A stretch of 63,132 bases of DNA, filler included, from Globobulimina sp. (taxonomy: Eukaryota), in the NCBI GenBank assembly GCA_003354225.1. It is 28 parts of 28 records of this genome, joined end to end, with 100 filler letters (N's around TTAATTAATTAA, not from the genome) between each part and the next. Parts side by side here need not be neighbours in the genome. Positions count along the whole stretch, not along the records: positions 47,434 to 49,590 come from PIVH01008559.1; 27 more parts are not named here. The stretch is one strand, 5' to 3'. Each line of letters starts with the position of its first letter. Positions within the stretch are counted from its first letter, which is position 1. Below the pieces are notes generated by a model. It was not told the origin of the DNA. It did no database searches and worked only from the letters and a program-made list of their open reading frames with translations. The position numbers and the translations under genes are program-made. Of the stretch, positions 11,301 through 54,104 are shown piece by piece.

Positions 11301-13459
11301 ACTTCAACAGAAATAACCTCAAAATTATGTTCTTGATTCAATAAATTCCTTCTCCTCATTCCATCGCTGTTCCTTTCTTCATTCAATCCATTATTCATAT
11401 TTGATTCGAATGCAGTTTTGAATGTTTCTGAAGCAAATCGTTCCGACAAAAACTGTTTATATTCATCCAATGATCGGTCTGCTACAATTCCAAAAGTGCC
11501 AACAGCATTATATTTATATTTATACTCTTTGTCATTCTCAGTATAACCAAATGAGGGACAACTTGTGGCCAACTCCACGTCGTTAAATACTGAACAAATT
11601 TGAAAATCTATAATCCCAGCTCTTGTCCATTCTGCATATTGCCAAATATCGCCATCCTCATAATGCGGAGAGTGGTGGATTGTGGATTGTATTGTTGTTA
11701 AAGTAGCATTTGACATTATTTCCGCATATTTCAATAATGTCATTTGAATTGTATAATATTTGATGTCTTCGTCATTGTATTTACACAAAAATATTAAACC
11801 AAAATAAAAATGGGTTGGTGATGCCGTTGGTAATGATGTTGTCGGTGATAATGTGGTCGGTGATAATGTTGTCGGTGATAATATTGTCGGTGATAATGTG
11901 GTCGGTGATAATGTTGTCGGTGATAATGTTGTCGGTGATAATGTTGTCGTTGTTGTGTTTGTCGGATTTTGAGTTGTTGTGTTTGTCGAAAAATGTTTGG
12001 ATGGTGAACTTGTTGGAGAATCTGTTGTAAGTGTTGTTGGAGATTTAGATGGAGCAGATGAAGGTATTTTGGATGGTGACTTTGTTGGTGGTATACTAGG
12101 GCTACTTGTTGAGTTTGAAGATGGTTGACTTGGATTATTTGATGGAGCAAATGTTGGATTTGTTGGTGATTCAGTGGGTAGTACAGGAATAATAGGAGAG
12201 TCTGTAGGATTTTGAGTGGGTATTGTTGTTGGATTATTTGATGGAACAAATGTTGGTGCGTCCGTTGGATGTGTTGGTTGCGTGGTTGGTCGGACTGGAG
12301 CCATTGATGGAGCATACGTTGGTGCTGAAGTAGGCTCATTTGTTGTTGGAGCAGATGTTGGTGATGGACTTGGAGCTATTGTATTAATTACACATTGCTG
12401 ATAAGAACTGTATGTTAATCCATTGACAATGTCGTTAACCACAGCAGCAACCGTCACCGCCGCAGATATCTCATGACCAATACTGGCATTATACACATTC
12501 CATCGATTGAGCTCAATTGCGGGCATTATAACTGTCTCGAAATACACCCCGTTCGGATAACTAATAGTTACATTTTCATACCAATATATATTTGCTGTTC
12601 TGTTGCCGTCAGTAAACACATTATAAACTGCACAATTAACTGGTTCTGGTAACAATACACAGGAACAATTTGATAAATAATAATGATTAGACGCGGAACA
12701 TTTACACAAATCAGTGCCAACATCGCAAGTTGCTGCAGAATCTCCATTAGATTTACATTCAGTTAAAATACACGACGTATCACATTGCGGTGCCATTGTT
12801 GGTGAATACGAAGGTGATTTTGTTGGTGCAATGGTTGGAACAGCTATGCAATGAATGTCATATTGTCCGTACTCTGGATAGCTAAACAGCAATGAAGTGC
12901 TTTCACCCTTTGCCAAATCAACCCAACTTGAACTGGATAAATCAGTCGATGCATAATAAGCGCTAGGACAAGGAGTGGGATATGAGGCCTGACATTGCCA
13001 ATTGAACATAAGTGGGTTGAAAGTCCAATAATAAGTTGCTGCAGCATTTGACCAGGCGTTGTCGCCAACTTTTGTAACAAACGGACCATTGCAGGGTGCA
13101 CTCACAGACGTTATAACTTGATCGCAATTCCATGTCGGACATGGACCGGCAGAAACATTGACGTTTGGATCAATTTGGCTGGGGATTCTCCATAAATTGT
13201 TACATGGTGTGGTTGGATCATTGCTGGTGGTACTGCATGATGCAAAATATGATGACAAACCTAATTCAGTAGATATGAACCATGCATTAGGCCCGATGTG
13301 ATAATATAAATATAATGTTGAGTGTCCTGTGCACGATGGATTCTCTGTTTTGGTATAATATGGCCGAGCATTGTACGTCCCAGAATATAAATATAATCCG
13401 TTCAAGTGTGTATTGCCGTTTCCTCTGCCCCACAGACATACATCTGGTAATTAACAAAT
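11301..13459 (-). CDS. Mucin-like extracellular protein: Cys-rich modules plus PT/PS-repeat stalk, partial at both ends
   Basis: Open across the contig; many PTxxPS/T repeats, EGF-like Cys cluster, RRRNLL motif. Confidence 0.8.
11841..11945 (-). repeat. 15-bp coding tandem repeat x7 encoding (TTLSP)n
   Basis: GTCGGTGATAATGTK units on the + strand. Confidence 0.95.
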
Positions 13460-29372: not shown

Positions 29373-30991
29373 CTCTTCTCTTCGTCGCCTTCCTCCGATG
29401 GCTCTGACTCATTTTCGTTGCTCTCAAATGCATTTATATTCATATTGATGTCGGGCAGGGTCAATGTGACCATTTTATCCTCGTCTTCTTCAATCATATC
29501 AAACCTCATATTCTCGTCGTCAATGCAGAGGTCATTGTCATTGTCGTCGTCGTCGTCGTCGGCATCATTCTGTCGTTGCAATTCGAGGATTTCGTCCTGT
29601 TGTAATAGACAACCAATGGACAATTTCTTCACTTTGTTAATGTCGTCGTCGATCAACTGCTTCGTAGAGCATATGGTACCGAGCTCCAATTCGGGAGTGG
29701 CGAATGGATCGGGGTCGTGATCGCCTAATACGATGCTCGGAGTTATGGAGGCGGAGACACGGCGACTTTGTAAGCGGGACTGCCGCGTGGACGACGGCGC
29801 ACTTTGTAGTTGCGAGTGGGTGCCCTGACCCGTCGACTCGTCGCTGTCATTGGTGGAACGCGAACAGCTGCGGAAATTGTTCATATTCTGTACTTTTTTC
29901 AAGTTACGCGCCATCTCAATCTGTTTCGATAAACGTGTGTGTTTTCTCTTCTTTTCCAGCGCTTTTGCCGCAATGTTGACATTATTATTTGCTTTTTTTT
30001 GAGGGTTACTGCGGTTGAGGTGGCTCATTGTCGTCGTATCCGACAGGGAGCGCAAGCGATTGATCATGTGTTTAGACTGCGACTGGGAGAGAATGGACTG
30101 TCGCGGGGAAGGCATAGGTGACACATGCGGGGTGGTACCGGTGATGTGGCTCAGTCCACCATGGATATGCATGCTTTCCCGTACTAAGGAGAATAATTTG
30201 TGTATTAATAAGGAGACAGATAAGATAGCCATGGAGCCGTCGACAGCGGCGTCAATGCCAAACATTATGCTCCTTTTCTGATGGATATGTTTGGAATTGT
30301 GCTGATTGGTATATTGTACGCAATAATCGTCGGTTAAATGTATGTAAATCATGGAGAATAAGATGAAGTTCATCATAATGAAGTAGATGCATAGTATGCA
30401 AACCACTGTGGTTCTGTTGTAATTCAATTGTGAGCCTTCCAGCATGTTATAAGCGCGTAGCACAAAATAAGCGTAGAGGAACATTTTGCCGTAGACATAG
30501 AAACCAACCATACAGAATAAGACACGACATTGGCCCATGGAATGGAACGTGAACAGACCAAATCCATTGATGTAATTGTTGTGCATTGACTGTTGATAGC
30601 AGCCAACGAATAGGAAGATTAAAAAAAATATCACTGTGGATACGCAAACGATTTTGCACAGTTTGGATGTAAATGACTCACTTTCCATATCGTAATCGTC
30701 TTCATTGTGGATCTCTCGTTTTTTAGTATTTTTGTTGTTTTTTATTGAATATCCATTAATACTTAATTTTTTTTGTACGGATGGGGTTGCAATGCTGCTG
30801 TGACTCCTCGTTAAAACTAGTTTACTTAGGTTCCGATGGTTGAAGCATTTACAACATTTATTTTTGCACTTTTTCTTGCAAGAACATATATTGTATATCA
30901 AATGGATACCGCCTATCAATGCCAATATAGTGATTATGTATAATGTTGTGGAAAATATGTATGTTTCAGCAACTGTTAATGTAGCGGTCAT
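29373..30991 (-). CDS. GPCR-like multi-pass membrane protein (about 5 TM then a long Ser/acidic loop), 3'-partial
   Basis: Five hydrophobic helices, YVYGKMFLYAYFVLR in the TM3-like position, long cytoplasmic loop. Confidence 0.65.
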
Positions 30992-31213
30992 GTTCTTGAC
31001 TAGCGAGTGTTTTAAAGTAAAACTATAGCTAAAAAATAAAAATCACAAAGATAATAGCATTTGAATGAAGCCATCACTTTGTTCGCAGTTATAACACATT
31101 ATATTCATTAGCTTTAACAAACGGATATAATCATATATAAACAAATAAGCAAATCATAAATCCCCGCTATTAACATTTGATTTAATTTAATTTGTATCAA
31201 AGTAATCAAACCA

Positions 31214-33888: not shown

Positions 33889-34802
33889 ACATATACGTTG
33901 TCAGCACCATTTATAATTGCATCGTGCAATATTTTTATTGGCTTTATTATGAATTCAGAAAATGCTCTCAATAATGTCCCAGTTTTATTCATTTTGACCC
34001 ATCTTAAACTTGCTCCATCCCAATAATTATTGCCCCATAGTTTTGTCATTAACTTTGAAACTCGTAATCCAAATTTGGAGGAATACATTTCAGCAAACGT
34101 TTGTAATGTAAATGCCCATTGATATAAACCTGAACCAAAACCAACATTTCCACATTTTGGTGTTATTCCATGATTACTGACAAATATTCGTTTGTGCAAT
34201 GAATAAAGCACATTAATTCTGTCAATTGAGCTGTTCAAAATGTTATACGTTTGCTGATATGTTAGCTGTAATTCCAAAAACATTTTATCTAATTTGTCCA
34301 TAAATAGTATAGGTACTATATCTTGCGACACTGCACATTGCAGTAACTTTTCGGTTTGCAAACTTAAGCTAAAACTTTGAATGGAATCAACAACAATGAC
34401 AGCACCGTCTGACAAAACAAATGAAGAGGTTGCTTCTGCAGAAAATGAAGAATGTCCCGGCGTATCAATTACATTGAATAAATACGAATGTTTTATTTGT
34501 TTATCATCTTTGTTTGTTGGTTGATAATATAACGAAATGTAGCTGGCTTTAATGCTCATTTTTTGTTCTTGCTGCGCGTGGTCTTTTGTTAAATACACAA
34601 ATCTGGTTTTCCATTCATTTTGGGATAGGATACCACATTTAACCAACAATGAATCTAATAGTGTGGAACAGCCATGTTTGAAGTCTGATATAAACACAAC
34701 ATTTCGAATATTTGTTGGTTTTTTCATCGCTGACACTATATCCTGAATTACAAAGCGTGAGCGAACTTTGCGGTGTGTTTCAGTCTTTGCATTGTGTGCC
34801 AT
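33889..34802 (-). CDS. Divergent eEF2-like G-domain protein with degenerate GTPase motifs, 3'-partial
   Basis: MKKPTNIRN, YLFNVIDTPGHSSFSAE, DGAVIVVD, GNVGFGSGLYQWAFTLQTFAEMYSSKFG...KLWGNNY are collinear with eEF2; P-loop reads SDFKHGCS and G4 reads DKLD. Confidence 0.85.
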
Positions 34803-34871
34803 ATGAGCTGAAAAATAGTTTTTTTGTTACAGTCTTCACATTTTCTATTCATTTTCCTTCAATCAGTCTGA

Positions 34872-40662: not shown

Positions 40663-42819
40663 TCCTTGCTTTCATAAAATTCAACATAGTTCTTCCAATT
40701 GCAGAACCTTTACGATATGTGGTTAGTGGCACTCGATGTTTTTTGAATATATTCACCACCTTTAAGTACAATGCATTATTTTCATCAATATTTTTTTCTA
40801 TATTCTGCACTTTATCATTTGCAACACGTAATTCTGTCAATAATATATTCTTTCTCTCTATAAAATTATTTTCAAATCCAACTAATAATTGTTGGTGCAA
40901 TTGAACCATAGCATTATTACCAGACGCAGGTGTACTCACTTTCAAGCCATGTATTTGCAAATTTACTTCTTCCAATTCAGTTAACAATTCACCAATATGC
41001 TCCTGCTCCATAAATAACGAATCAACATCAATTTTATGCTCATCATATTGCTCCTGACATGCTGTGATTGAGTACTTAAGTAAACCTTTATGAATCACAG
41101 CAAAAATCCCACTAAATACATGATGGCAGGTAGTACCCATTTTATGTACAGGTATTTCGATTATAGGTGGTGCTTTACATCCTTTACCTGCTTTCAATTT
41201 CATATTTTTAGTGCTTTCTAAATTATATTTTGATAAATTATTTAAATGTTGAATAATATCTCTATTTATTCCTGAATCCATAAATTTCATAAATTTAGGC
41301 TTACATTCATCACAAATATAACAAGAATAATTACATGAACACGAACCATACCCACAGATCTCATTAATTCCTTTCCAATCTGAACCCCACCATAAATAAA
41401 GATCTTTAACAAACACAAATATAATTGTCTCAGTACTATCTGTTTCATTTGTAAATATATCCACTGTACTATTTATTTTACAAACAGTGTTATTTTCAAA
41501 TAAATATGCACTGTTTTTGATATTGATATGTGGAATAAAAGGGGTTATGGCTTGCATAATTAATATTATATTTTCATTTGATATTTCTATAAATGCATGA
41601 CAAGCACCAATTATTTCATCATCAGTACTAAATAATAATAAACCATGAAATGTATCTGAAAATAAACCTTGTTTAATTTTCAAAGATTTATCTTTATGTC
41701 TTCCATTATTTGTATCTATATCAAATAAATATGCTAAATTCCTCTCAGTAGATAATATATTGCTGATATTTATTATTTGTACTGAAATTTCAGTTTTATT
41801 GCAGTTTACATGATGATGTTTTTTGTCCCATATTTTTTTTGAAACACTGAATCTATTTTCTTGCCCATATTTTGATTTGAGATTCGATTGCTGAATTTCC
41901 GTGGATTTGACAGTTACATACTTTGAGTCACATAGTTTTTGTGCAGCTTCACTGAAACTTAATACTGCAGTGCCCCATGAAAATTGTTTACCTTTTTGTT
42001 TAATCACAGTTATTGATGTTGGATGTTTTAATAATCCATTTATTTCCTCCACATTCGTCAATTTTTGTAAATTTAAATATTTATCATCAACGTTCGCGTT
42101 GCATAATGTTGTAATGATACTATTTTTGGGGGAATTGCTTTTTTGGCCAGCTTTAACACATACTGACTCTTGAAAATACAAATTGCATTTATCTGATCCT
42201 AAATGAGCCCAAATATAATCTCCATTAAAGGAACATAAATTTTTACCCATCCCAATATGCACATTTATTATTTTTGCGATTGATGTGGATTCCATTTGTT
42301 TCAAAACAAATGTTTCTTCAAATGATGTCACCTTTTTATTGTCAATTTTTTTCTTGATTTGCAACATAATTTTCTTAATATTATTTTTTGATATTTTACC
42401 TGCTTTTAATATCTCTATAACCTCCCTTTCCGGCGCAATAAATTTAAAACCCAACAATTCATTACAAACACTCCTTAATTCTCGTATTTGAGCTCTTTGC
42501 ATTGTTAGTTTGAGTTTTAATTTCGATGTCCTCAGCCCACCTAAACATAATATATCCATTCTATATTCATTAATTAAAGCAACCATAATTTTCTTTTTTT
42601 TACTTAAATCATTGCAACATTTATAGTCAATAAGTTTATCAATTTCTTTTGCGTGAAAATTAATATTTTTATCTCTAAACCAATGGGATATATATGGTAC
42701 ACCTAAATACTCAGATATTCGTTTATTAATTGTTTTCAATCTATTTCTGTCTTGTTTTTCAATGATACTTTCTTTCACTTTGAAATTTATATTTTCCCAT
42801 TGAGTATCATTCAGTTTTT
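40663..42819 (-). mobile_element. RAG1/Transib/Chapaev-related DDE transposase, partial at both ends
   Basis: IWAHLGSDK...SNSPKNS...DDKYLNL; LWWGSDWKGINEICG...NYSCYICDEC; PIIEIP...CHHVFSGI, the same order as the RAG1-core D, D-x-K...CxxC, LH..G motifs. Confidence 0.7.
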
Positions 42820-47333: not shown

Positions 47334-47433
47334 NNNNNNNNNNNNNNNNNNNNNNNNNNNNNNNNNNNNNNNNNNNNTTAATTAATTAANNNNNNNNNNN
47401 NNNNNNNNNNNNNNNNNNNNNNNNNNNNNNNNN

Positions 47434-49567
47434 ATTGATATTGTTGATATTCATTTGTAATTATATTTATATCCCCGGTATTATATTGAGAACTACTTTT
47501 ATTTATCAATTCTTTTTTTATCCTTTGATTAAAACCATTGAACATCGTATTCCCGCCAGAAATAATAATATTTTTATACAATAATGATTTAACATCATTT
47601 AAACACGAATCAATGGATGAATTTATTAAATCTGGCAATCGATTCATTATACATTTTTCTGTACATTTAAATCTTTCTTCATTTAACCAAATCGATGATA
47701 TTATCTCTCCATTCTCGTCACTAAATATATTATATCCATCCGGTAATTGATAGCATTTTGAACTATCATTATTGTCATGGCCATCCATCCAAACATCGCA
47801 GAAATTCTCTTTAATATTATTTATCACAAATTCTTTTTTATATTTGGAGACCTTTTGGTTATAAACGTTATTTAAACCCAAAGAATATGACAATACATTG
47901 TTTTCCAACCATTTATTCACAACATTGCCGCAAATATTGTTAATATTTATCGATTTTAATTTAAACGGAATCCCTTCGAATATGGGCGCTATGGTCGTAT
48001 GTCCATAACCACTCTCAATCACAGTTCCGCTCAAATTCCCCGTCGCATGCAATGACAAAATGACATCTGGACATAAATAAAATGAATTTATATTAAATTG
48101 CTCAAACATAATTTGTGTTATTTTCTCTCTGTTCTCTGCATCGTTCATTAATGACTCGCTCATTAACACTAATTTGCAATCATTGGCTGGATCCATTTTC
48201 AATGTATCTTTGAAAATATGCCACCATATTTTCTCCATCGAGTCCCAATCGTTAATTATTCCATTCTCAATAATATTATGTTGCAAATTTATAAATTTCT
48301 CGTTTTTTATTGCTTTGTTGCCAATGTAATATATATCCGAATTCAAACTGTTAGCCATATTTTTTAATTTATCTCCGTGTCCAATTATAGTCGGAAACGT
48401 TTCTGGTATTTCGGTGGTATTATAGCCACATTTCATAAATCCAGAGCCATTGTCAATTATCACCACACTTTCTCCGGATTCATTATTAGGTTCACACAGT
48501 ATTTGGGCACCCAATTTTGGCGCAATTGTTTTGTAATTACTTTGGTGCAAATATGAGCCGTACATATAACTCGATTCTTCCTTGATTTCATCGTCTACAT
48601 TCATAGTAAATATCGCCTTTTCCACAGTTTCTTCATTTGTTGGTTGCAATGTTTGTGATAAGGATGGAATTTCATCCTTTTTCGGTGGCTTTGCAGTTTG
48701 GTTCATAATGTTTGTATTAATTTTATTATTCAAAAATTCAATTCGCTTCGCTTGAGATTCAATTGTTTTATTTGCAGAATTTAATTCATTTAAAACAAAT
48801 TTCATTTGCGATTGTAAAATAAGCACAGAATTTTCCAACGATTGATATTTTTGCTGATAATCATTGATAATAAGCATTAAATGTTTATGTTGATAGTCTT
48901 TAAAATGGTGATCCATTTTATTGATTTGCTTAATGTCCATTGTATATAAACATCCTTGTGATAATAAGGGACATTTGATTGATTTACTTATTTTACTCTT
49001 ACTTGTTTTATTGATTTTTTTTGCTTTTGTACATGTTTGATTTACTGCATATTTATGTGCTTGTTTGAGTGCGTTGTCTCTGCTGTTTGTAGATGAGGTT
49101 CGCCGTCGGGTCGAATAGTTTTCTTGTTTCCATTTCTTATGCGTGTCGTTATAAATAATAGTATCAGTGCACGTGGTCAATCTGCGCCGTTTTGATATAT
49201 CGTCATTTGCATTGGTATTATCATTACGACATTGCAGCAAATGGCTATCTAATAGTGATAATGTACCATTCCATTTGCAATATTTATGATGACAATTGAC
49301 TTGCAATTCGTCAATCATATGTTGTAATACCTTTGGTAATACTTTTGGTTCTTTAATATTTTTGTTACAATGATTTACGTTGCATGTTGAGTTTTGTTTA
49401 CTTAATTTCTCGATACATCCATTGCAATAAATATGATTATTATCGCAAATTCTCCCAAATCCTTTCTTGGGGATATTTCTACATTGATTGCAAACTAATC
49501 CTTCAACAAAGCCTTTGTGAATTGCAATGTTTGCAGACCAAACAGTTTGAAGAGACATTTGTGGCAA
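47434..49567 (-). CDS. RING/TRAF-type zinc-finger protein fused to an actin-like domain, 3'-partial
   Basis: CNQC...C..NHIYCNGC...C, CKWNGTLSLLDSHLLQC, CPLLSQGC...HKHL, coiled coil, then VIIDNGSGFMKCG, DWDSMEKIWWH, NREKITQIMFEQF, IESGYGHT, NIIISGGNTMF in one ORF. Confidence 0.9.
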
Positions 49568-50257
49568 TGAACTGGAGTGTTTTTTTTAAANNNNNNNNNN
49601 NNNNNNNNNNNNNNNNNNNNNNNNNNNNNNNNNNTTAATTAATTAANNNNNNNNNNNNNNNNNNNNNNNNNNNNNNNNNNNNNNNNNNNNAAAAAAGGCG
49701 TCACGTAATCCTCCTTTCATAAATTACATCACTGTGGCAAGAGCCTGTGTGATGATTGAAATTTAAATTCATAGCGACGAGGCGCTGAGAGGAACTAAAG
49801 AAAAACCAAAAAAAGAATAGATTAACAGATTTATGTTGTTGCAATTCGCTGACATAAATATTAAAATTGCACTGATTATACACATTTTTTAAATAACATT
49901 TTTTTGATGTCACTAATTAATTTTATCAGGAGCACTAAAAACAAACTAAAAGACATGATACAAAATAACAAATAGTTGCTGCAATACACACTATTTGACT
50001 TTTTAACCATTCTTAAATCATACATCGATCCGATTAAGTTTCAAAAGTTAAAATCCGATCATCAATCAAAAATACATTCAGTGAAACAAATTATTTATTT
50101 ATACAAACGCCATATAATTGGAACAGAACATTATAAATTATGGAGAATTATATTCTTAGATTCTATTATTAATAGTTCTCATATAACGCAAACAGCAATG
50201 CCTTCATCATAAAAAATGCCACATATTTGCATCAAAAACACCAACATCGCACTCAAC

Positions 50258-51947: not shown

Positions 51948-54104
51948 TACGGTCTTATCAATTAAGACAGATATATTTGTTATAAATTTCATGCATTTAT
52001 CCAGTGACAAGCGCCAATTCTTATTATCAATCTGCGGAATAGTTTTCGGAGTTATTCCTTTAAAGGAAAGCAAATGATGAATGAACATGGTCGCTAATTG
52101 TAATTTTAATTCAATGTCTCGATTAACCGATATCTTTTCTTGGATATCAATAATCGACGCAGTCAAATCCGCTCTGGACGCCGTATCCAAGAAAGCAAAC
52201 CGTTGCTTAACATTATACACTTGGAAAATGATAATAAATGCACGGATATTTAAGTCATATTGATGCAAATTATACAGCTTCTCTTCAAATAATTGCGTCG
52301 CCATAACATTGCTAATACCAAATATATTATTACTCGCATATTGTTGTTGCGATAATGAATATTCGTTATTCATTTGTTTTATTGCACTTAATCCTTTTTC
52401 ATAAAATGCCAATTCTTTGCCAATGACAGCATTATTGTTCCACGGCAACGATGCCATCAAATCATTGTATTCATTCTTATTGAAAAAGGCAAACATTTGC
52501 GAGGTTTTGTAATATTGAAAGGGATCAAATATTGCATTGATTACGCATTTATAAAATGACACTAAGCATAAACTTTGATGTACCATTTCATACGAAACGC
52601 GTATTAATCTTCGCCAATTCCGATCTAATTCCACTGCTTTTTCGTGTAATAAGGCACAATATTTTGGTGGTATTCGCGTAGTGATATTATGAGAATGCGA
52701 GTAAGATTCGTAAAAATGTTTTGCTTTTTGCGCCGTTGGCTGTGAATCTATAAAATTATGCAAAAAATTATGATCCCCAACAAAACAATCCATCGCCAAC
52801 GATTTATATCCATTTACAAATGATTGCAAACATAATGTCATACTTTTCTGCAACGCGTCCAATTTTATGTCAGTATCCGCCATCAATGGTAACTGTTTTA
52901 ACAATTTCAACGAGAACGACTGTATTTGTTTCAATAACGATCGAAAATCAGCATCGCCATCACATTTCATCTCATTTTCCACCCAAACACTATGACTTTT
53001 TCTCGCCGCCTTCTTCTTTCTTCGTTTGCTCATCGATGAATGTGCAATTTGTGTAATTTGCTGTTTACCCCCACCTAATCTCGCAAGCATTAGCCTCAAA
53101 CCCATGGTCAAATCCATAATTTGGCGCTGCAAATAGTCCGCAGATTGCTTGGTTAACCATTCCGATATCGGATCATAGATAAACGCACTAAATAACTCGA
53201 TCCAATTCCGAGAATTACCACGCAACAAATTCAATATATACTGGCACGTACAATAAAAATGTCCCTTTGTCTGTGTGGTGCCCGACAAACCCAAGGCATA
53301 CACCATGGATTTCGTCAATCTGAACGGCACTAATTCAGGCACTCGTAACCTATAACCTTTCTCAAAACAGACATTAAAGTCAATATGCACCACTTCGCCC
53401 GTACGAAAATCCAATAATATATTACCAATATGGCGGTCCCCCAAACCAATGAACCATCCCAACACCGACGACAACGCAACGGATTGACTGAAAGTGGTGC
53501 ATTTAAAAAAGAAATCGTTGATTGAAGAGGAAGAGCACCACAATTCTCTCCATATTAATTCTTTGGGCGCTTTGGTCGAGATTTCCGTGAAGGCCTTTTT
53601 CAACACAGATATGGGCCATTTGTGTCTCGCCAATGTTTGACAGGAATATGAGGGATTGATTTCTTTCAAATATTTATCAATCAATGCACGGTACGAATCG
53701 ACGCCGGTTCCCCGCCGTTTGCTATTATTGTGGTCCTCAGCGATGGGTTTACCATAATTATCCTGCCAGGCACGAAAGATTAGGTATAACGGCGTGGCGT
53801 GGTCCACAAAGCGGATTAAACCGGTTTTCTTGTCTAAGGGAATAACTTCATACCAACGGGTACGTAATTGTTGATTGTATAATGTGTTATGTTTGCATTT
53901 ATTGTAATTGTAGGCATGCCGCGAGATCAAACCATTGCAATTCCGCAAGAATTGCATGATTCGTTCATCCAAATTCAAATCTTCGCGCGATTTCAATAAA
54001 TATTGATACGAACGACCGTCATTACCCACAAAGGATAACTATTTCGGGCGCGTTTTCATGCGGATAATATCGACGCGATTGTTGAAAGAATGCAGCAAAA
54101 TCTT
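51948..54104 (-). CDS. SMG1: SMG1-like PI3K-related kinase (PIKK), internal fragment
   Basis: YLLKSREDLNLDERIMQFL, ELWCSS, IGLGDRHIGNILLD, GEVVHIDFNVCFEKG.RLRVPE.VPFRLT, followed by a long helical insert typical of SMG1. Confidence 0.85.

What the first reader, a model, noticed from the sequence alone, without database searches (positions are those of the whole stretch)
47434..49567. TRAF-like RING/zinc-finger protein ending in a divergent actin instead of a MATH domain
Seen: RING-like, TRAF/Sina-type fingers, coiled coil and a near-complete actin fold in one intron-free ORF. Established: TRAFs end in MATH, and actin fusions are rare. Inference: a ubiquitin ligase targeted to, or co-assembling with, the actin cytoskeleton; potentially an undescribed architecture.
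Basis: partly seen in the sequence, partly recalled or inferred. Interest (0 to 1): 0.7.

Follow-up and report, generated by a model that had tools for sequence, protein, structure and literature searches.

The report
TRAF-like RING protein fused to actin
A conserved gene of foraminifera joins a TRAF-style zinc-finger and coiled-coil scaffold to a divergent actin domain that probably cannot polymerise. I found no description of this domain combination, and its function is untested.

Summary
The window is 28 short contigs joined by N spacers. Contig 47434-49590 carries one minus-strand ORF (ATG 49558) that runs off the contig end after 708 codons.

Layout:
- RING-like finger with 8 invariant ligands
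- linker helix
- TRAF-type CCHC finger
- disordered basic linker
- CCHH finger
- 65-residue coiled coil
- disordered linker
- actin domain (Pfam E 2e-63), lacking about 37 C-terminal residues

It is not a chimera. Full-length homologues with the same layout exist in Nonionella stella, Bolivina argentea (fragment) and an unnamed ENA contig. Contigs from other studies bridge the junction, with in-frame indels only.

A profile of the N-termini hits TRAF6 and TRAF2 RING-ZnF1 first in the PDB (E 1e-4). There is no MATH domain, so it is TRAF-like but not a TRAF.

The ligase reading is weakened. The RING lacks the hydrophobic E2-contact residue, the conserved Pro and the usual last-ligand spacing that 22-25 of its 25 nearest RING relatives keep.

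The actin domain keeps its phosphate loops. It has Q137D and H161T, a deleted hydrophobic plug, a variable D-loop and R62E. It is probably ARP-like and non-polymerising.

Best reading: an oligomeric TRAF-type scaffold that uses an actin-fold head as its recognition module. This is a new variant of known kinds, restricted so far to foraminifera.

The parts
47434..49590 (.). One contig of the concatenated window. It is flanked by artificial spacers: N44-TTAATTAATTAA-N44 at 47334-47433 and at 49591-49690.
47435..49558 (-). ORF of 708 codons (P0001). ATG at 49558. No stop codon: it runs off the contig end. About 37 C-terminal residues are missing relative to P0002 and P0003.
49367..49492 (-). RING-like finger, aa 23-64. 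Ligands C23 C26 C38 H42 C45 C48 C59 C64 are invariant in 4 of 4 members. The last pair has unusual C-x4-C spacing, and the E2-contact positions are polar.
49298..49339 (-). Conserved linker helix, aa 74-87 (LPKVLQHMIDELQV), between the RING and finger 1.
49229..49294 (-). TRAF-type zinc finger 1, aa 89-110 (C-x4-C-x11-H-x3-C). It aligns with ZF1 of TRAF6 and TRAF2.
48986..49213 (-). Disordered basic linker, aa 116-191, with KRRR and a conserved RRRTSST motif. Identity within the family is 28-42%, and in-frame indels between strains fall here.
48881..48973 (-). Zinc finger 2, aa 196-226 (C196 C203 H218 H226, all invariant). Its last ligands lie in the helix that continues as the coiled coil. 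It is called TRAF-like by pattern and predicted beta-beta-alpha fold only.
48698..48892 (-). Coiled coil, aa 223-287. No indels in the family and 60-80% identity. Predicted to self-associate in parallel and in register.
48479..48691 (-). Disordered linker 2, aa 290-360. Identity is 26-29%, with many indels.
47435..48472 (-). Divergent actin-fold domain, aa 363-708, cut at the contig end. DNGSG, K18, G156, K213/E214, G301-G302 and M305/F306 are kept. Q137D, H161T, D154E, D157Y, R62E, H73N, Y169I/V and R177N/S are changed. The plug is deleted, and there is a 12-residue insert after LPDG.

Best explanation
This is a real protein-coding gene, so far seen only in foraminifera and unnamed environmental sequences. 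It encodes a TRAF-style oligomeric scaffold whose C-terminal recognition domain (MATH in TRAF1-6, WD40 in TRAF7) is replaced by a divergent actin-fold domain.

Shown:
- The domain order and its conservation.
- The TRAF-type homology of the RING-ZnF1 unit.
- The absence of MATH.
- The actin homology.
- The replaced residues.

Inferred:
- The coiled coil makes parallel dimers or trimers, so each particle presents two or three actin-like heads on about 70-residue flexible tethers.
- The actin head still binds a nucleotide, because the phosphate loops and adenine-pocket residues are kept.
- It no longer hydrolyses ATP by the actin mechanism (Q137D, H161T).
- It cannot take a place inside an actin filament (plug deleted, D-loop unconstrained, R62E).
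- It therefore behaves like an orphan actin-related protein: a docking or recognition module for actin, a filament end or actin-binding proteins.
- The RING-ZnF1 unit is kept as a zinc-bound structural or dimerising unit of the TRAF2 kind. It probably does not recruit an E2 by the canonical surface on its own. Any ubiquitin ligase activity would need a partner RING or an unusual E2 contact.
For: Reality of the gene:
- Homologues P0002 (801 aa, 99% of the query covered), P0003 (744 aa, 100%) and fragment P0004 share the whole layout.
- P0003 is from Nonionella stella and P0004 from Bolivina argentea.
- In one search, a 794-nt contig of run X2 covers 48102-48895 and a 2282-nt contig of run X6 covers 47434-49548. 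The indels are 6, 15 and 9 nt, all in frame.
- Among the listed differences to X6, 16 of 28 changed codons are synonymous, against 19% expected at random.
- Modules are 48-80% identical and linkers 26-42%.

TRAF-type N-terminus:
- Profile against the PDB: TRAF6 at 1.2e-4, TRAF2 at 5.3e-4, TRAF6 at 9.6e-4. Seven of the first eight hits are TRAF6 or TRAF2; RAG1 is seventh.
- Relatives carry RING, Sina and TRAF Pfam models.
- The AF2 model gives pLDDT 83-97 for residues 1-110.
- The nearest feature clusters are RING plus zf-TRAF, which is only a lead.

No MATH: Pfam finds only Actin above threshold in the three members that reach the actin domain.

Oligomer:
- Predicted helix 209-287.
- Complex prediction with three copies of residues 192-289 scored 0.81, against 0.00 for the best of 3 controls. 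The runs agree in at least 91% of contacts and the partner pLDDT is at least 74.
- That mark was reached by 21 of 30 proteins solved as pairs of one chain and 0 of 23 solved as single chains (microbes). For eukaryotes the counts are 17 of 29 and 0 of 30.
- The calibration used two copies, not three. The alignment was not used. A pass for a coiled coil may come from memory.

RING lacks canonical E2 contacts. PMC5702613 (passages) reports that TRAF6 I72D/L74R does not bind Ubc13 and that an insertion in the TRAF2 RING appears to abrogate E2 binding.

Actin head:
- Compared with 38 actin rows, D11 N12 G13 S14 G15 K18 N111 G156 K213 G301 G302 M305 F306 are kept in all 3 of 3 members; E214 is kept in 2 of 3 (D in P0003).
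- Q137D, H161T, D154E, D157Y, R62E, H73N, R210N are changed in 3 of 3 members; R177 is also replaced in all three, by N in two and S in one.
- The plug is deleted and there is a 12-residue insert.
- The roles of His161, Gln137 and A108 in hydrolysis are taken from PMC10062479 (abstract).
- The closest stand-alone proteins are actins at only 30-35% identity.
- The family forms one clade on a stem of 1.65 changes per site.
Against: - No experiment exists, and every functional step is inferred.
- All eight RING ligands and the linker helix are strictly conserved. That would also fit an active ligase using a non-canonical or heterodimeric mode; BARD1-type and Bmi1-type RINGs are examples I recall rather than tested.
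- Position 52 keeps a hydrophobic Leu, where relatives have W or L.
- Zinc finger 2 has no sequence-profile support beyond its ligand pattern.
- Only a trimer was tested for the coiled coil, so the number of chains is open.
- Some barbed-end-groove residues stay hydrophobic (I345, I/L346, L349, I355). Contact with actin or with actin-binding proteins is therefore possible, but capping or templating cannot be excluded.
- No ARP reference sequences were available, so orthology to a named ARP was not excluded by a tree.
- An actin-less relative (P0039) exists with the same fingers and coiled coil. The scaffold can therefore work without the actin head.
Confidence: 0.5

Rival explanations
1. One reading: an active RING E3 ubiquitin ligase held on, or delivered to, the actin cytoskeleton by its actin domain. 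It would ubiquitinate actin or actin-binding proteins.
For: - The RING ligands, linker helix and ZnF1 are all invariant. In TRAF6 these are the elements that form the catalytic dimer and contact ubiquitin (PMC5702613, abstract and passages).
- The top PDB profile hits are TRAF6, an active ligase.
- A self-associating coiled coil could bring RINGs together.
- Other gene models fuse E3-adaptor-type domains to actin. P0029 of Anaeramoeba carries PF00651 and PF00415 with PF00022. I recall these as BTB and RCC1; that naming was not checked.
Against: - The I72-equivalent position is polar or charged in 4 of 4 members, against I/V in 22 of 25 relatives.
- The Pro after ligand 7 is absent, against 23 of 25 relatives.
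- The residue after the usual last ligand is R/K in 20 of 25 relatives, but the family has shifted the ligand itself.
- The closest N-terminal alignment covering the first Cys pair is to TRAF2, whose RING is reported not to bind E2 (PMC5702613 passage citing Yin 2009).
- The polymerisation surfaces of the actin head are lost.
Confidence: 0.25
2. Nucleator or end-binder. The coiled coil clusters two or three actin-like heads into a pre-formed actin-nucleus mimic that seeds or caps filaments. The principle is that of Arp2/3 or tandem-monomer nucleators, and the setting would be the fast-remodelling reticulopodia of foraminifera.
For: - Predicted parallel in-register self-association, with long flexible tethers to the heads.
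- The actin fold is intact: Foldseek target-normalised TM-score (TMt) 0.68-0.74 to G-actin and E about 1e-28.
- Part of the barbed-end groove stays hydrophobic.
Against: - R62E, Y169I/V, the deleted plug and a D-loop of variable length within the family remove the contacts that hold subunits together in F-actin. The roles of these residues are recalled from the actin literature, not tested here.
- W356V and I341K alter the groove.
Confidence: 0.1
3. Nuclear ARP-like role. The basic KRRR and RRRTSST linker acts as a nuclear localisation signal, and the actin head pairs with actin or an Arp in a chromatin complex.
For: - Basic clusters with an invariant R151, T154, S156, T157 motif.
- Nuclear Arps are non-polymerising actin folds with insertions (PMC3510490; only the abstract in the search listing was seen).
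Against: - No homology to any chromatin-complex domain.
- The motif could equally be a kinase site.
- Nothing was tested.
Confidence: 0.08
4. Artefact: an assembly chimera of a RING gene and an actin gene, or a decaying pseudogene.
For: - The contigs are short.
- A 32-nt stretch (48102-48133) inside the actin part is shared with very deep contigs of other actin genes. Such a repeat can mis-join assemblies.
Against: - The repeat lies inside the actin domain, 340 nt from the junction.
- Contigs of three other studies bridge the junction region.
- The same fusion occurs in two named species and one ENA contig.
- There is an excess of synonymous changes, and every indel seen is in frame.
- No stand-alone orthologue of either half was found.
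Confidence: 0.02

Closest known systems
TRAF family (TRAF2, TRAF6)
   Same: N-terminal RING, a linker helix and a TRAF-type CCHC finger, detected by profile at E 1e-4. A further finger follows, then a self-associating coiled coil.
   Different: - No TRAF-C/MATH domain, which with the coiled coil defines the family (PMC5702613 passage).
- Only two fingers, separated by a 76-residue disordered basic linker.
- Non-canonical last RING ligand pair and polar E2-contact positions.
TRAF7 (RFWD1)
   Same: RING, zinc finger and coiled coil, followed by a protein-binding domain other than MATH (PMC10424150 passages). It is a precedent for swapping the C-terminal module.
   Different: The C-terminal module is WD40 repeats, not an actin fold. 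TRAF7 is metazoan. No sequence comparison was made here.
Filactin of Dictyostelium
   Same: A long N-terminal extension followed by a C-terminal actin domain (PMC2441452 passages).
   Different: - Filactin's actin domain is described there as 'extremely homologous to conventional actin', whereas this one is 30-35% identical.
- That paper does not mention RING, TRAF or zinc fingers (0 occurrences).
Orphan or non-canonical actin-related proteins (for example Arp8, Arp53D)
   Same: The actin fold is retained with the nucleotide loops, but insertions, deletions and lost polymerisation surfaces are present (PMC3510490 and PMC8291977 seen as search-listing abstracts only).
   Different: No orthology to a named ARP could be tested. 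The family is a separate long-branch clade, and it is fused to a RING-finger scaffold.
Other actin fusions in gene predictions (Anaeramoeba P0029; POTE-actin of primates)
   Same: An actin domain sits at the C-terminus of an unrelated N-terminal module (PMC8292509 seen in the listing only).
   Different: The N-terminal modules differ, and none has a RING or TRAF finger. Several are single unverified gene models.

Membership tests
TRAF (TRAF1-6) | C-terminal TRAF-C/MATH domain | tested here: not met
   Pfam finds only Actin above threshold in P0001, P0002 and P0003. The C-terminal 346 residues are an actin fold.
TRAF (TRAF1-6) | N-terminal RING followed by a TRAF-type zinc finger | tested here: met
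   The family profile hits TRAF6 5vnz at E 1.2e-4, TRAF2 3knv at 5.3e-4 and TRAF6 5vo0 at 9.6e-4, across the RING, helix and ZF1. The ligands are invariant. The Pfam RING and zf-TRAF models are themselves below threshold.
TRAF (TRAF1-6) | Series of several TRAF zinc fingers | tested here: inconclusive
   Only two fingers are present. The second (C196 C203 H218 H226) is supported by invariance and a predicted beta-beta-alpha fold only.
TRAF (TRAF1-6) | Coiled coil (TRAF-N) that oligomerises | tested here: met
   By prediction only. Helix 209-287. Three copies scored 0.81 against 0.00 for the best control. The number of chains was not determined.
Catalytically competent RING E3 | Hydrophobic E2-contact residue between the first two ligands (TRAF6 I72), Pro after ligand 7, and C-x2-C/D for the last pair followed by a basic residue | tested here: not met
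   family Q/K/E/R against I/V in 22 of 25 relatives; N/L/T/T against P in 23 of 25; no ligand at position +2, against C/D in 25 of 25; R/K follows in 20 of 25. The I72 register is by ligand position. The TRAF6 sequence itself is recalled.
Actin superfamily (Pfam PF00022) | Match to the family model over most of its length | tested here: met
   E 2.1e-63 over model positions 4-365 of 410. For full-length P0002 and P0003 the values are 2e-77 and 6e-76 over positions 3-409.
Conventional (filament-forming) actin | Catalytic Q137 and H161, the hydrophobic plug, a conserved D-loop, and high identity to other actins | tested here: not met
   Q137D and H161T in 3 of 3 members, against Q in 34 and H in 32 of 38 actin rows. 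The plug is deleted and the D-loop varies in length. Identity is 30-35%.
Named ARP classes (Arp1-Arp11) | Orthology in a tree that includes reference ARPs | not tested
   No ARP reference sequences could be obtained. The 60 best PDB matches are all actins, and the tree held no ARPs.
Filactin | Its specific N-terminal domain plus a near-canonical actin | not tested
   Only the description in PMC2441452 was read. No sequence was compared.

The most novel reading that the evidence does not exclude
Foraminifera have evolved a self-contained actin-nucleus mimic. A TRAF-type coiled coil holds three nucleotide-locked actin-like heads together, so that the particle seeds, caps or cross-links filaments in the reticulopodial network. 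The RING and zinc-finger end links these particles into higher-order lattices or ties them to ubiquitin signalling. This would be a filament-organising principle unrelated to Arp2/3, formins or tandem-WH2 nucleators.
Probability: 0.08. Interest if true: 0.8.

Novelty: new variant of a known kind. Interest (0 to 1): 0.5.

Why it matters
- It would be a second natural case, after TRAF7, in which the TRAF scaffold carries a different C-terminal module. It would be the first in which that module is an actin fold.
- It shows an actin domain that kept its nucleotide loops while losing its catalytic and polymerisation residues, and that has stayed conserved across foraminiferal genera. This gives a clean natural experiment on what an actin fold can do when it is not a filament subunit.
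- Foraminifera build unusually dynamic pseudopodial networks and their cytoskeletal regulators are poorly known. A lineage-restricted, conserved actin-linked scaffold is a reasonable candidate for that biology.
- The claim rests on sequence and prediction only.

Tried and rejected
- **Whole genome.** None is held for this window. Paralogues, introns and gene neighbours could not be examined.
- **Paralogue in the window.** tblastn of P0001, P0003 and P0039 against the window found no second copy.
- **Rfam on the window.** No match.
- **RNA evidence.** No RNA holder was listed. Runs X6 and X8 are only guessed to be RNA, so transcription is not shown by the runs. P0003 and P0004 probably come from the polyA transcriptomes described in PMC8153729 (passages), but the link between the EukProt sets and that paper is my inference.
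- **JGI metagenome scan with the N-terminal alignment.** 169 pattern matches were found, none confirmed.
- **First AF2 model of the N-terminus from 4 sequences.** The model was poor, pLDDT 51. Its Foldseek search gave 0 matches at E<=0.001. The top rows were RING or RING-ZnF domains (RAG1 at 0.07, RNF125, MDM2, TRAF5/6, TRAF2, SIAH1) and carry no weight.
- **Feature search of the actin part.** It returned only generic actin and Arp clusters and did not discriminate.
- **Literature.** Five searches for a described RING/TRAF-actin fusion found none. The Dictyostelium actinome paper, the Rhizaria single-cell paper and the Filoreta preprint were searched by term and do not mention one. InterPro and CDART could not be queried, and supplements were closed. 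Supplementary tables of PMC8153729 could list these transcripts.
- **Earlier findings of this scan.** Nothing was found.
- **Typed actin-domain search.** The window's own actin domain was searched by reference instead.
- **Chimera hypothesis.** Rejected; see the rivals.
- **Giant-virus or Asgard origin.** I considered this at the start because of the AT-richness. I dropped it once the homologues were named as foraminifera and a second contig's SMG1-like kinase proved 78% identical to a Bolivina argentea protein.
Full report
**What the window is.** The 63,132-base window is not contiguous DNA. It holds 54 runs of exactly 44 N, arranged as 27 spacers of the form N44-TTAATTAATTAA-N44. These separate 28 contigs of 2157-2160 bp sorted by length. 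No whole genome is held. The finding lies in the contig 47434-49590, so its 'start' is simply the contig end. ORFs on other contigs have eukaryotic domains: ABC transporter, PI3/PI4-kinase, FH2, GPS motif and an EF-Tu-type GTPase.

**The observation.** On the minus strand an ORF starts at ATG 49558 and runs without a stop to 47435, giving 708 residues (P0001).
- Pfam finds Actin (PF00022) at E 2.1e-63, residues 363-703 on model positions 4-365 of 410. The RING model zf-C3HC4 scores only E 0.13, below its cut-off. No zf-TRAF match appears even at E 10.
- Against the PDB, 158 distinct sequences match at E<=0.01. All 60 listed are actins, best 1.4e-48.

**Is it a chimera?** No.
- A search of 5.8 billion proteins restricted to 389-1239 residues gave 35 hits. 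Three cover both halves: P0002 (801 aa, 52% identity, 99% of the query), P0003 (744 aa, 48%, 100%) and the fragment P0004 (436 aa, ending early in the actin domain).
- P0003 is a Nonionella stella protein and P0004 a Bolivina argentea protein in EukProt. P0002 comes from an unnamed ENA contig of 3925 bp.
- All 16 putative zinc ligands are invariant in the four sequences.
A 794-nt contig of X2 covers 48102-48895. Two abutting contigs of X1 cover 48216-49203. A single 2282-nt contig of X6, with 88 substitutions over about 2.1 kb, covers 47434-49548 and continues 170 nt beyond the window's contig end.
- All indels against these contigs are 6, 9 or 15 nt (14+1 in X6, 2+1+12 in X8), so all are in frame. 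They lie in the disordered linker or the D-loop region.
- Table 3 showed 40 rows of differences and noted 64 more that were not shown. Thirty of the shown rows concern X6 and fall in 28 codons. Sixteen of those codons are synonymous changes and 12 are not, against 19% synonymous expected for random changes.
- Within the family the three structured modules are 48-80% identical, with no indel in ZnF2 plus coiled coil. The two linkers are 26-42% identical and full of indels.
- This is the signature of a multi-domain protein under selection on every module.

**Which organism?** The nearest homologues are foraminiferal. A PI3K-related, SMG1-like kinase on another contig (51948-54038) is 78% identical to a Bolivina argentea protein. 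The window therefore most likely comes from a foraminifer related to, but distinct from, Bolivina, since P0001 and P0004 are 61% identical overall. Whether the contigs are genomic or cDNA is open, so 'intron-free' carries no weight. The run kinds are not on record.

**The N-terminal half.**
- Alone, residues 1-289 find TRAF2 (E 0.049) and TRAF6 (E 0.23) as the two best of four PDB hits.
- A profile of the four N-termini (A2) raises this to TRAF6 at 1.2e-4, TRAF2 at 5.3e-4 and TRAF6 at 9.6e-4. The alignment runs from the RING through the helix LPKVLQHMIDELQV to the CCHC finger. Seven of the first eight hits are TRAF6 or TRAF2; RAG1 ranks seventh, and RAD18 and LNX follow weakly.
- An exhaustive phmmer scan of 1.84 billion representatives found 35 proteins at E<=0.001. 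Only P0004, P0002 and P0003 match the whole N-terminus. Two are short fragments, P0037 and P0038.
- P0039 (417 aa) and its relative P0041 share the fingers and coiled coil but have no actin domain and a degenerate RING. The rest match only residues about 17-120.
- I scanned 32 of those hits with Pfam. 27 carry zf-RING_2, 5 Sina_ZnF, 5 Sina_RING, 4 TRAF2_zf, 4 TRAF3_RING and 3 zf-TRAF.
- A language-model feature search put residues 1-290 nearest to RING plus zf-TRAF clusters at 0.92-0.94. This is a lead only.
- With a 71-row alignment, AlphaFold2 models residues 1-110 at pLDDT 83-97. It predicts a beta-beta-alpha finger at 86-109, disorder at 116-190, a second beta-beta-alpha finger at 193-221 that continues into one helix to residue 287, and disorder at 293-360.
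- So 'RING-like plus TRAF/Sina-type fingers plus coiled coil' is correct. There is no MATH domain, which with the coiled coil defines TRAFs (PMC5702613, passage read). The protein is TRAF-like but not a TRAF. TRAF7, which ends in WD40 repeats, shows that this scaffold can carry another C-terminal module (PMC10424150, passages).

**Is the RING a ligase?** I compared the family with 25 of its nearest RING relatives. Of the 30 distant hits P0039-P0068, I left out P0043, P0048 and P0068 as long multi-domain proteins, and I treated P0039 and P0041 separately.
- Between the first two ligands, 22 of 25 relatives have I or V. The family has Q, K, E or R.
- After ligand 7, 23 of 25 have Pro. The family has N, L, T or T.
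- Two residues after ligand 7, 25 of 25 have the last ligand (C or D), and 20 of 25 follow it with R or K. The family has no ligand there and uses C64 instead.
- The first of these positions corresponds by ligand register to TRAF6 I72. The I72D/L74R mutant 'does not interact with Ubc13', and the TRAF2 RING 'appears to abrogate E2 binding' (PMC5702613, passages).
- Only the helix position 52 (Leu) remains hydrophobic.
- The fold is evidently maintained, but the canonical E2 surface is not.

**The coiled coil.** Three copies of residues 192-289 were predicted to form a parallel, in-register bundle with a/d-type contacts from 223 to 287.
- The score was 0.81 against 0.00 for the best of three controls. 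The runs agree in at least 91% of contacts and the partner pLDDT is at least 74.
- That mark was reached by 21 of 30 proteins solved as pairs of one chain and by 0 of 23 solved as single chains. For eukaryotes the counts are 17 of 29 and 0 of 30.
- The calibration used two copies, the alignment was not used, and a pass for a coiled coil may come from memory.
- This supports self-association but does not fix the number of chains.

**The actin half.**
- The closest stand-alone proteins in 5.8 billion are ordinary actins at 30-35% identity. There were 569 hits, of which the best 120 are listed. They include Nonionella's own actin-like proteins, and no stand-alone orthologue appears.
- In a quick maximum-likelihood tree of 29 hand-picked rows (3 fusion domains, 7 Nonionella actin-likes and 19 other actins, with no ARPs), the fusion domains form one clade with 100% SH-aLRT support. 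The clade sits on a stem of 1.65 changes per site and is not nested among the Nonionella actins. The three rows have deviant composition, so the placement is unsure.
- I numbered residues against a 376-residue actin and compared them with 38 actin rows. The family keeps D11 N12 G13 S14 G15, K18, N111, G156, K213, G301 G302 and M305 F306 in all three members; E214 is kept in two of three (D in P0003).
- All three members have Q137D, H161T, D154E, D157Y, V159H, A108S, R62E, H73N, Y143H and R210N. Y169 is I or V, R177 is N or S and K336 is Q or S. P0002 and P0003, the two members that reach the C-terminus, also have W356V.
- The hydrophobic-plug segment is deleted, about nine residues shorter. 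A 12-residue insert follows LPDG, and the D-loop differs in length among the three members.
- His161, Gln137 and Ala108 organise the attacking water for ATP hydrolysis (PMC10062479, abstract). The roles of the plug, D-loop, R62 and Y169 in filament contacts are recalled from the actin literature.
- The model of this domain is confident, pLDDT about 80-95. Its 50 best Foldseek matches are all actin chains, at E about 1e-28 and target-normalised TM-score (TMt) 0.68-0.74.
- I read this as an actin fold that probably still binds nucleotide, no longer hydrolyses it the actin way and cannot sit inside a filament. It is an orphan ARP-like head.

**How it most likely works.**
- Shown: the domain order, its conservation, TRAF-type homology of RING-ZnF1, the absence of MATH, and the residue changes.
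- Inferred: a coiled-coil oligomer presents two or three ARP-like heads on flexible tethers. The head serves as the recognition or docking module, in the place where TRAFs carry MATH. The RING-ZnF1 unit acts structurally or in dimerisation, with ligase activity, if any, depending on a partner.
- I give this 0.5. The rivals are an active actin-targeted ligase (0.25), a clustered-head nucleator or capper (0.10), a nuclear ARP-like role suggested by the basic KRRR and RRRTSST linker (0.08) and an artefact (0.02).

**Novelty.**
- Both halves are known kinds. The combination is not one I could find described. Five full-text searches and term searches in three relevant papers found none.
- Domain-architecture databases could not be queried. 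Because the RING and fingers fall below Pfam thresholds, these proteins are annotated with PF00022 alone. A Pfam-based catalogue would therefore not show the architecture.
- Known actin fusions differ. Filactin has a near-canonical actin and another N-terminus. POTE-actin was seen in a listing only. An Anaeramoeba gene model joins PF00651 and PF00415 with actin.
- I rate it a new variant of known kinds, of moderate interest. It is a conserved, lineage-restricted link between a TRAF-type scaffold and an actin fold, in organisms with unusual cytoskeletal dynamics, but it has no functional data.

Noticed in passing
whole window; spacers such as 47334-47433 and 49591-49690: The window is a concatenation of 28 contigs of 2157-2160 bp, sorted by length and joined by N44-TTAATTAATTAA-N44. 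Features that appear to be neighbours are therefore not linked. Any ORF that touches a spacer is cut.
   Followed up: yes
48102-48133: A 32-nt stretch coding the conserved actin motif ENREKITQIMFE is shared with much deeper contigs in runs X1 and X2. Bin depth is 14871 and 941, against about 80 and 24 for the rest. These are presumably the organism's conventional actin genes or transcripts. The flanks of those contigs are unlike this gene.
   Followed up: partly
P0039 (417 aa) and P0041 (167 aa), hits: These are actin-less relatives with the same N-terminal motif, finger 1, finger 2 and coiled coil. Their RING is degenerate: H42 is replaced by K and the last ligand pair is absent. The tail is low in complexity. 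The scaffold therefore also exists without the actin head.
   Followed up: partly
49090-49113 (aa 149-156) and homologues: A conserved RRRTSST motif (R151, T154, S156 and T157 are invariant) lies inside an otherwise poorly conserved disordered linker. It could be a basophilic-kinase site or part of a nuclear localisation signal.
   Followed up: no
51948-54038, minus strand: An ORF open at its downstream (contig) end holds a PI3/PI4-kinase domain. Its best named relatives are SMG1-type kinases. It is 78% identical to a Bolivina argentea EukProt protein.
   Followed up: partly
33891-34826, minus strand: A protein with an EF-Tu-type GTP-binding domain (Pfam E 3.8e-29). By eye its first nucleotide-binding motif looks altered (KHGCST). 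It may be a divergent EF2 or Snu114-like paralogue.
   Followed up: no
40664-42817 (minus), 11303-13450 (minus), 29375-31042 (minus): Long ORFs of 556-718 codons, all three cut at a contig end (40664-42817 at both ends), with no Pfam match at E<=0.001.
   Followed up: no
P0029, hit (Anaeramoeba ignava, 841 aa): A gene model that combines PF00651, PF00415, PF13540 and PF25390 with a C-terminal actin domain. It is another actin fusion to a module I recall as BTB/RCC1. It comes from a single gene model and was not examined.
   Followed up: no
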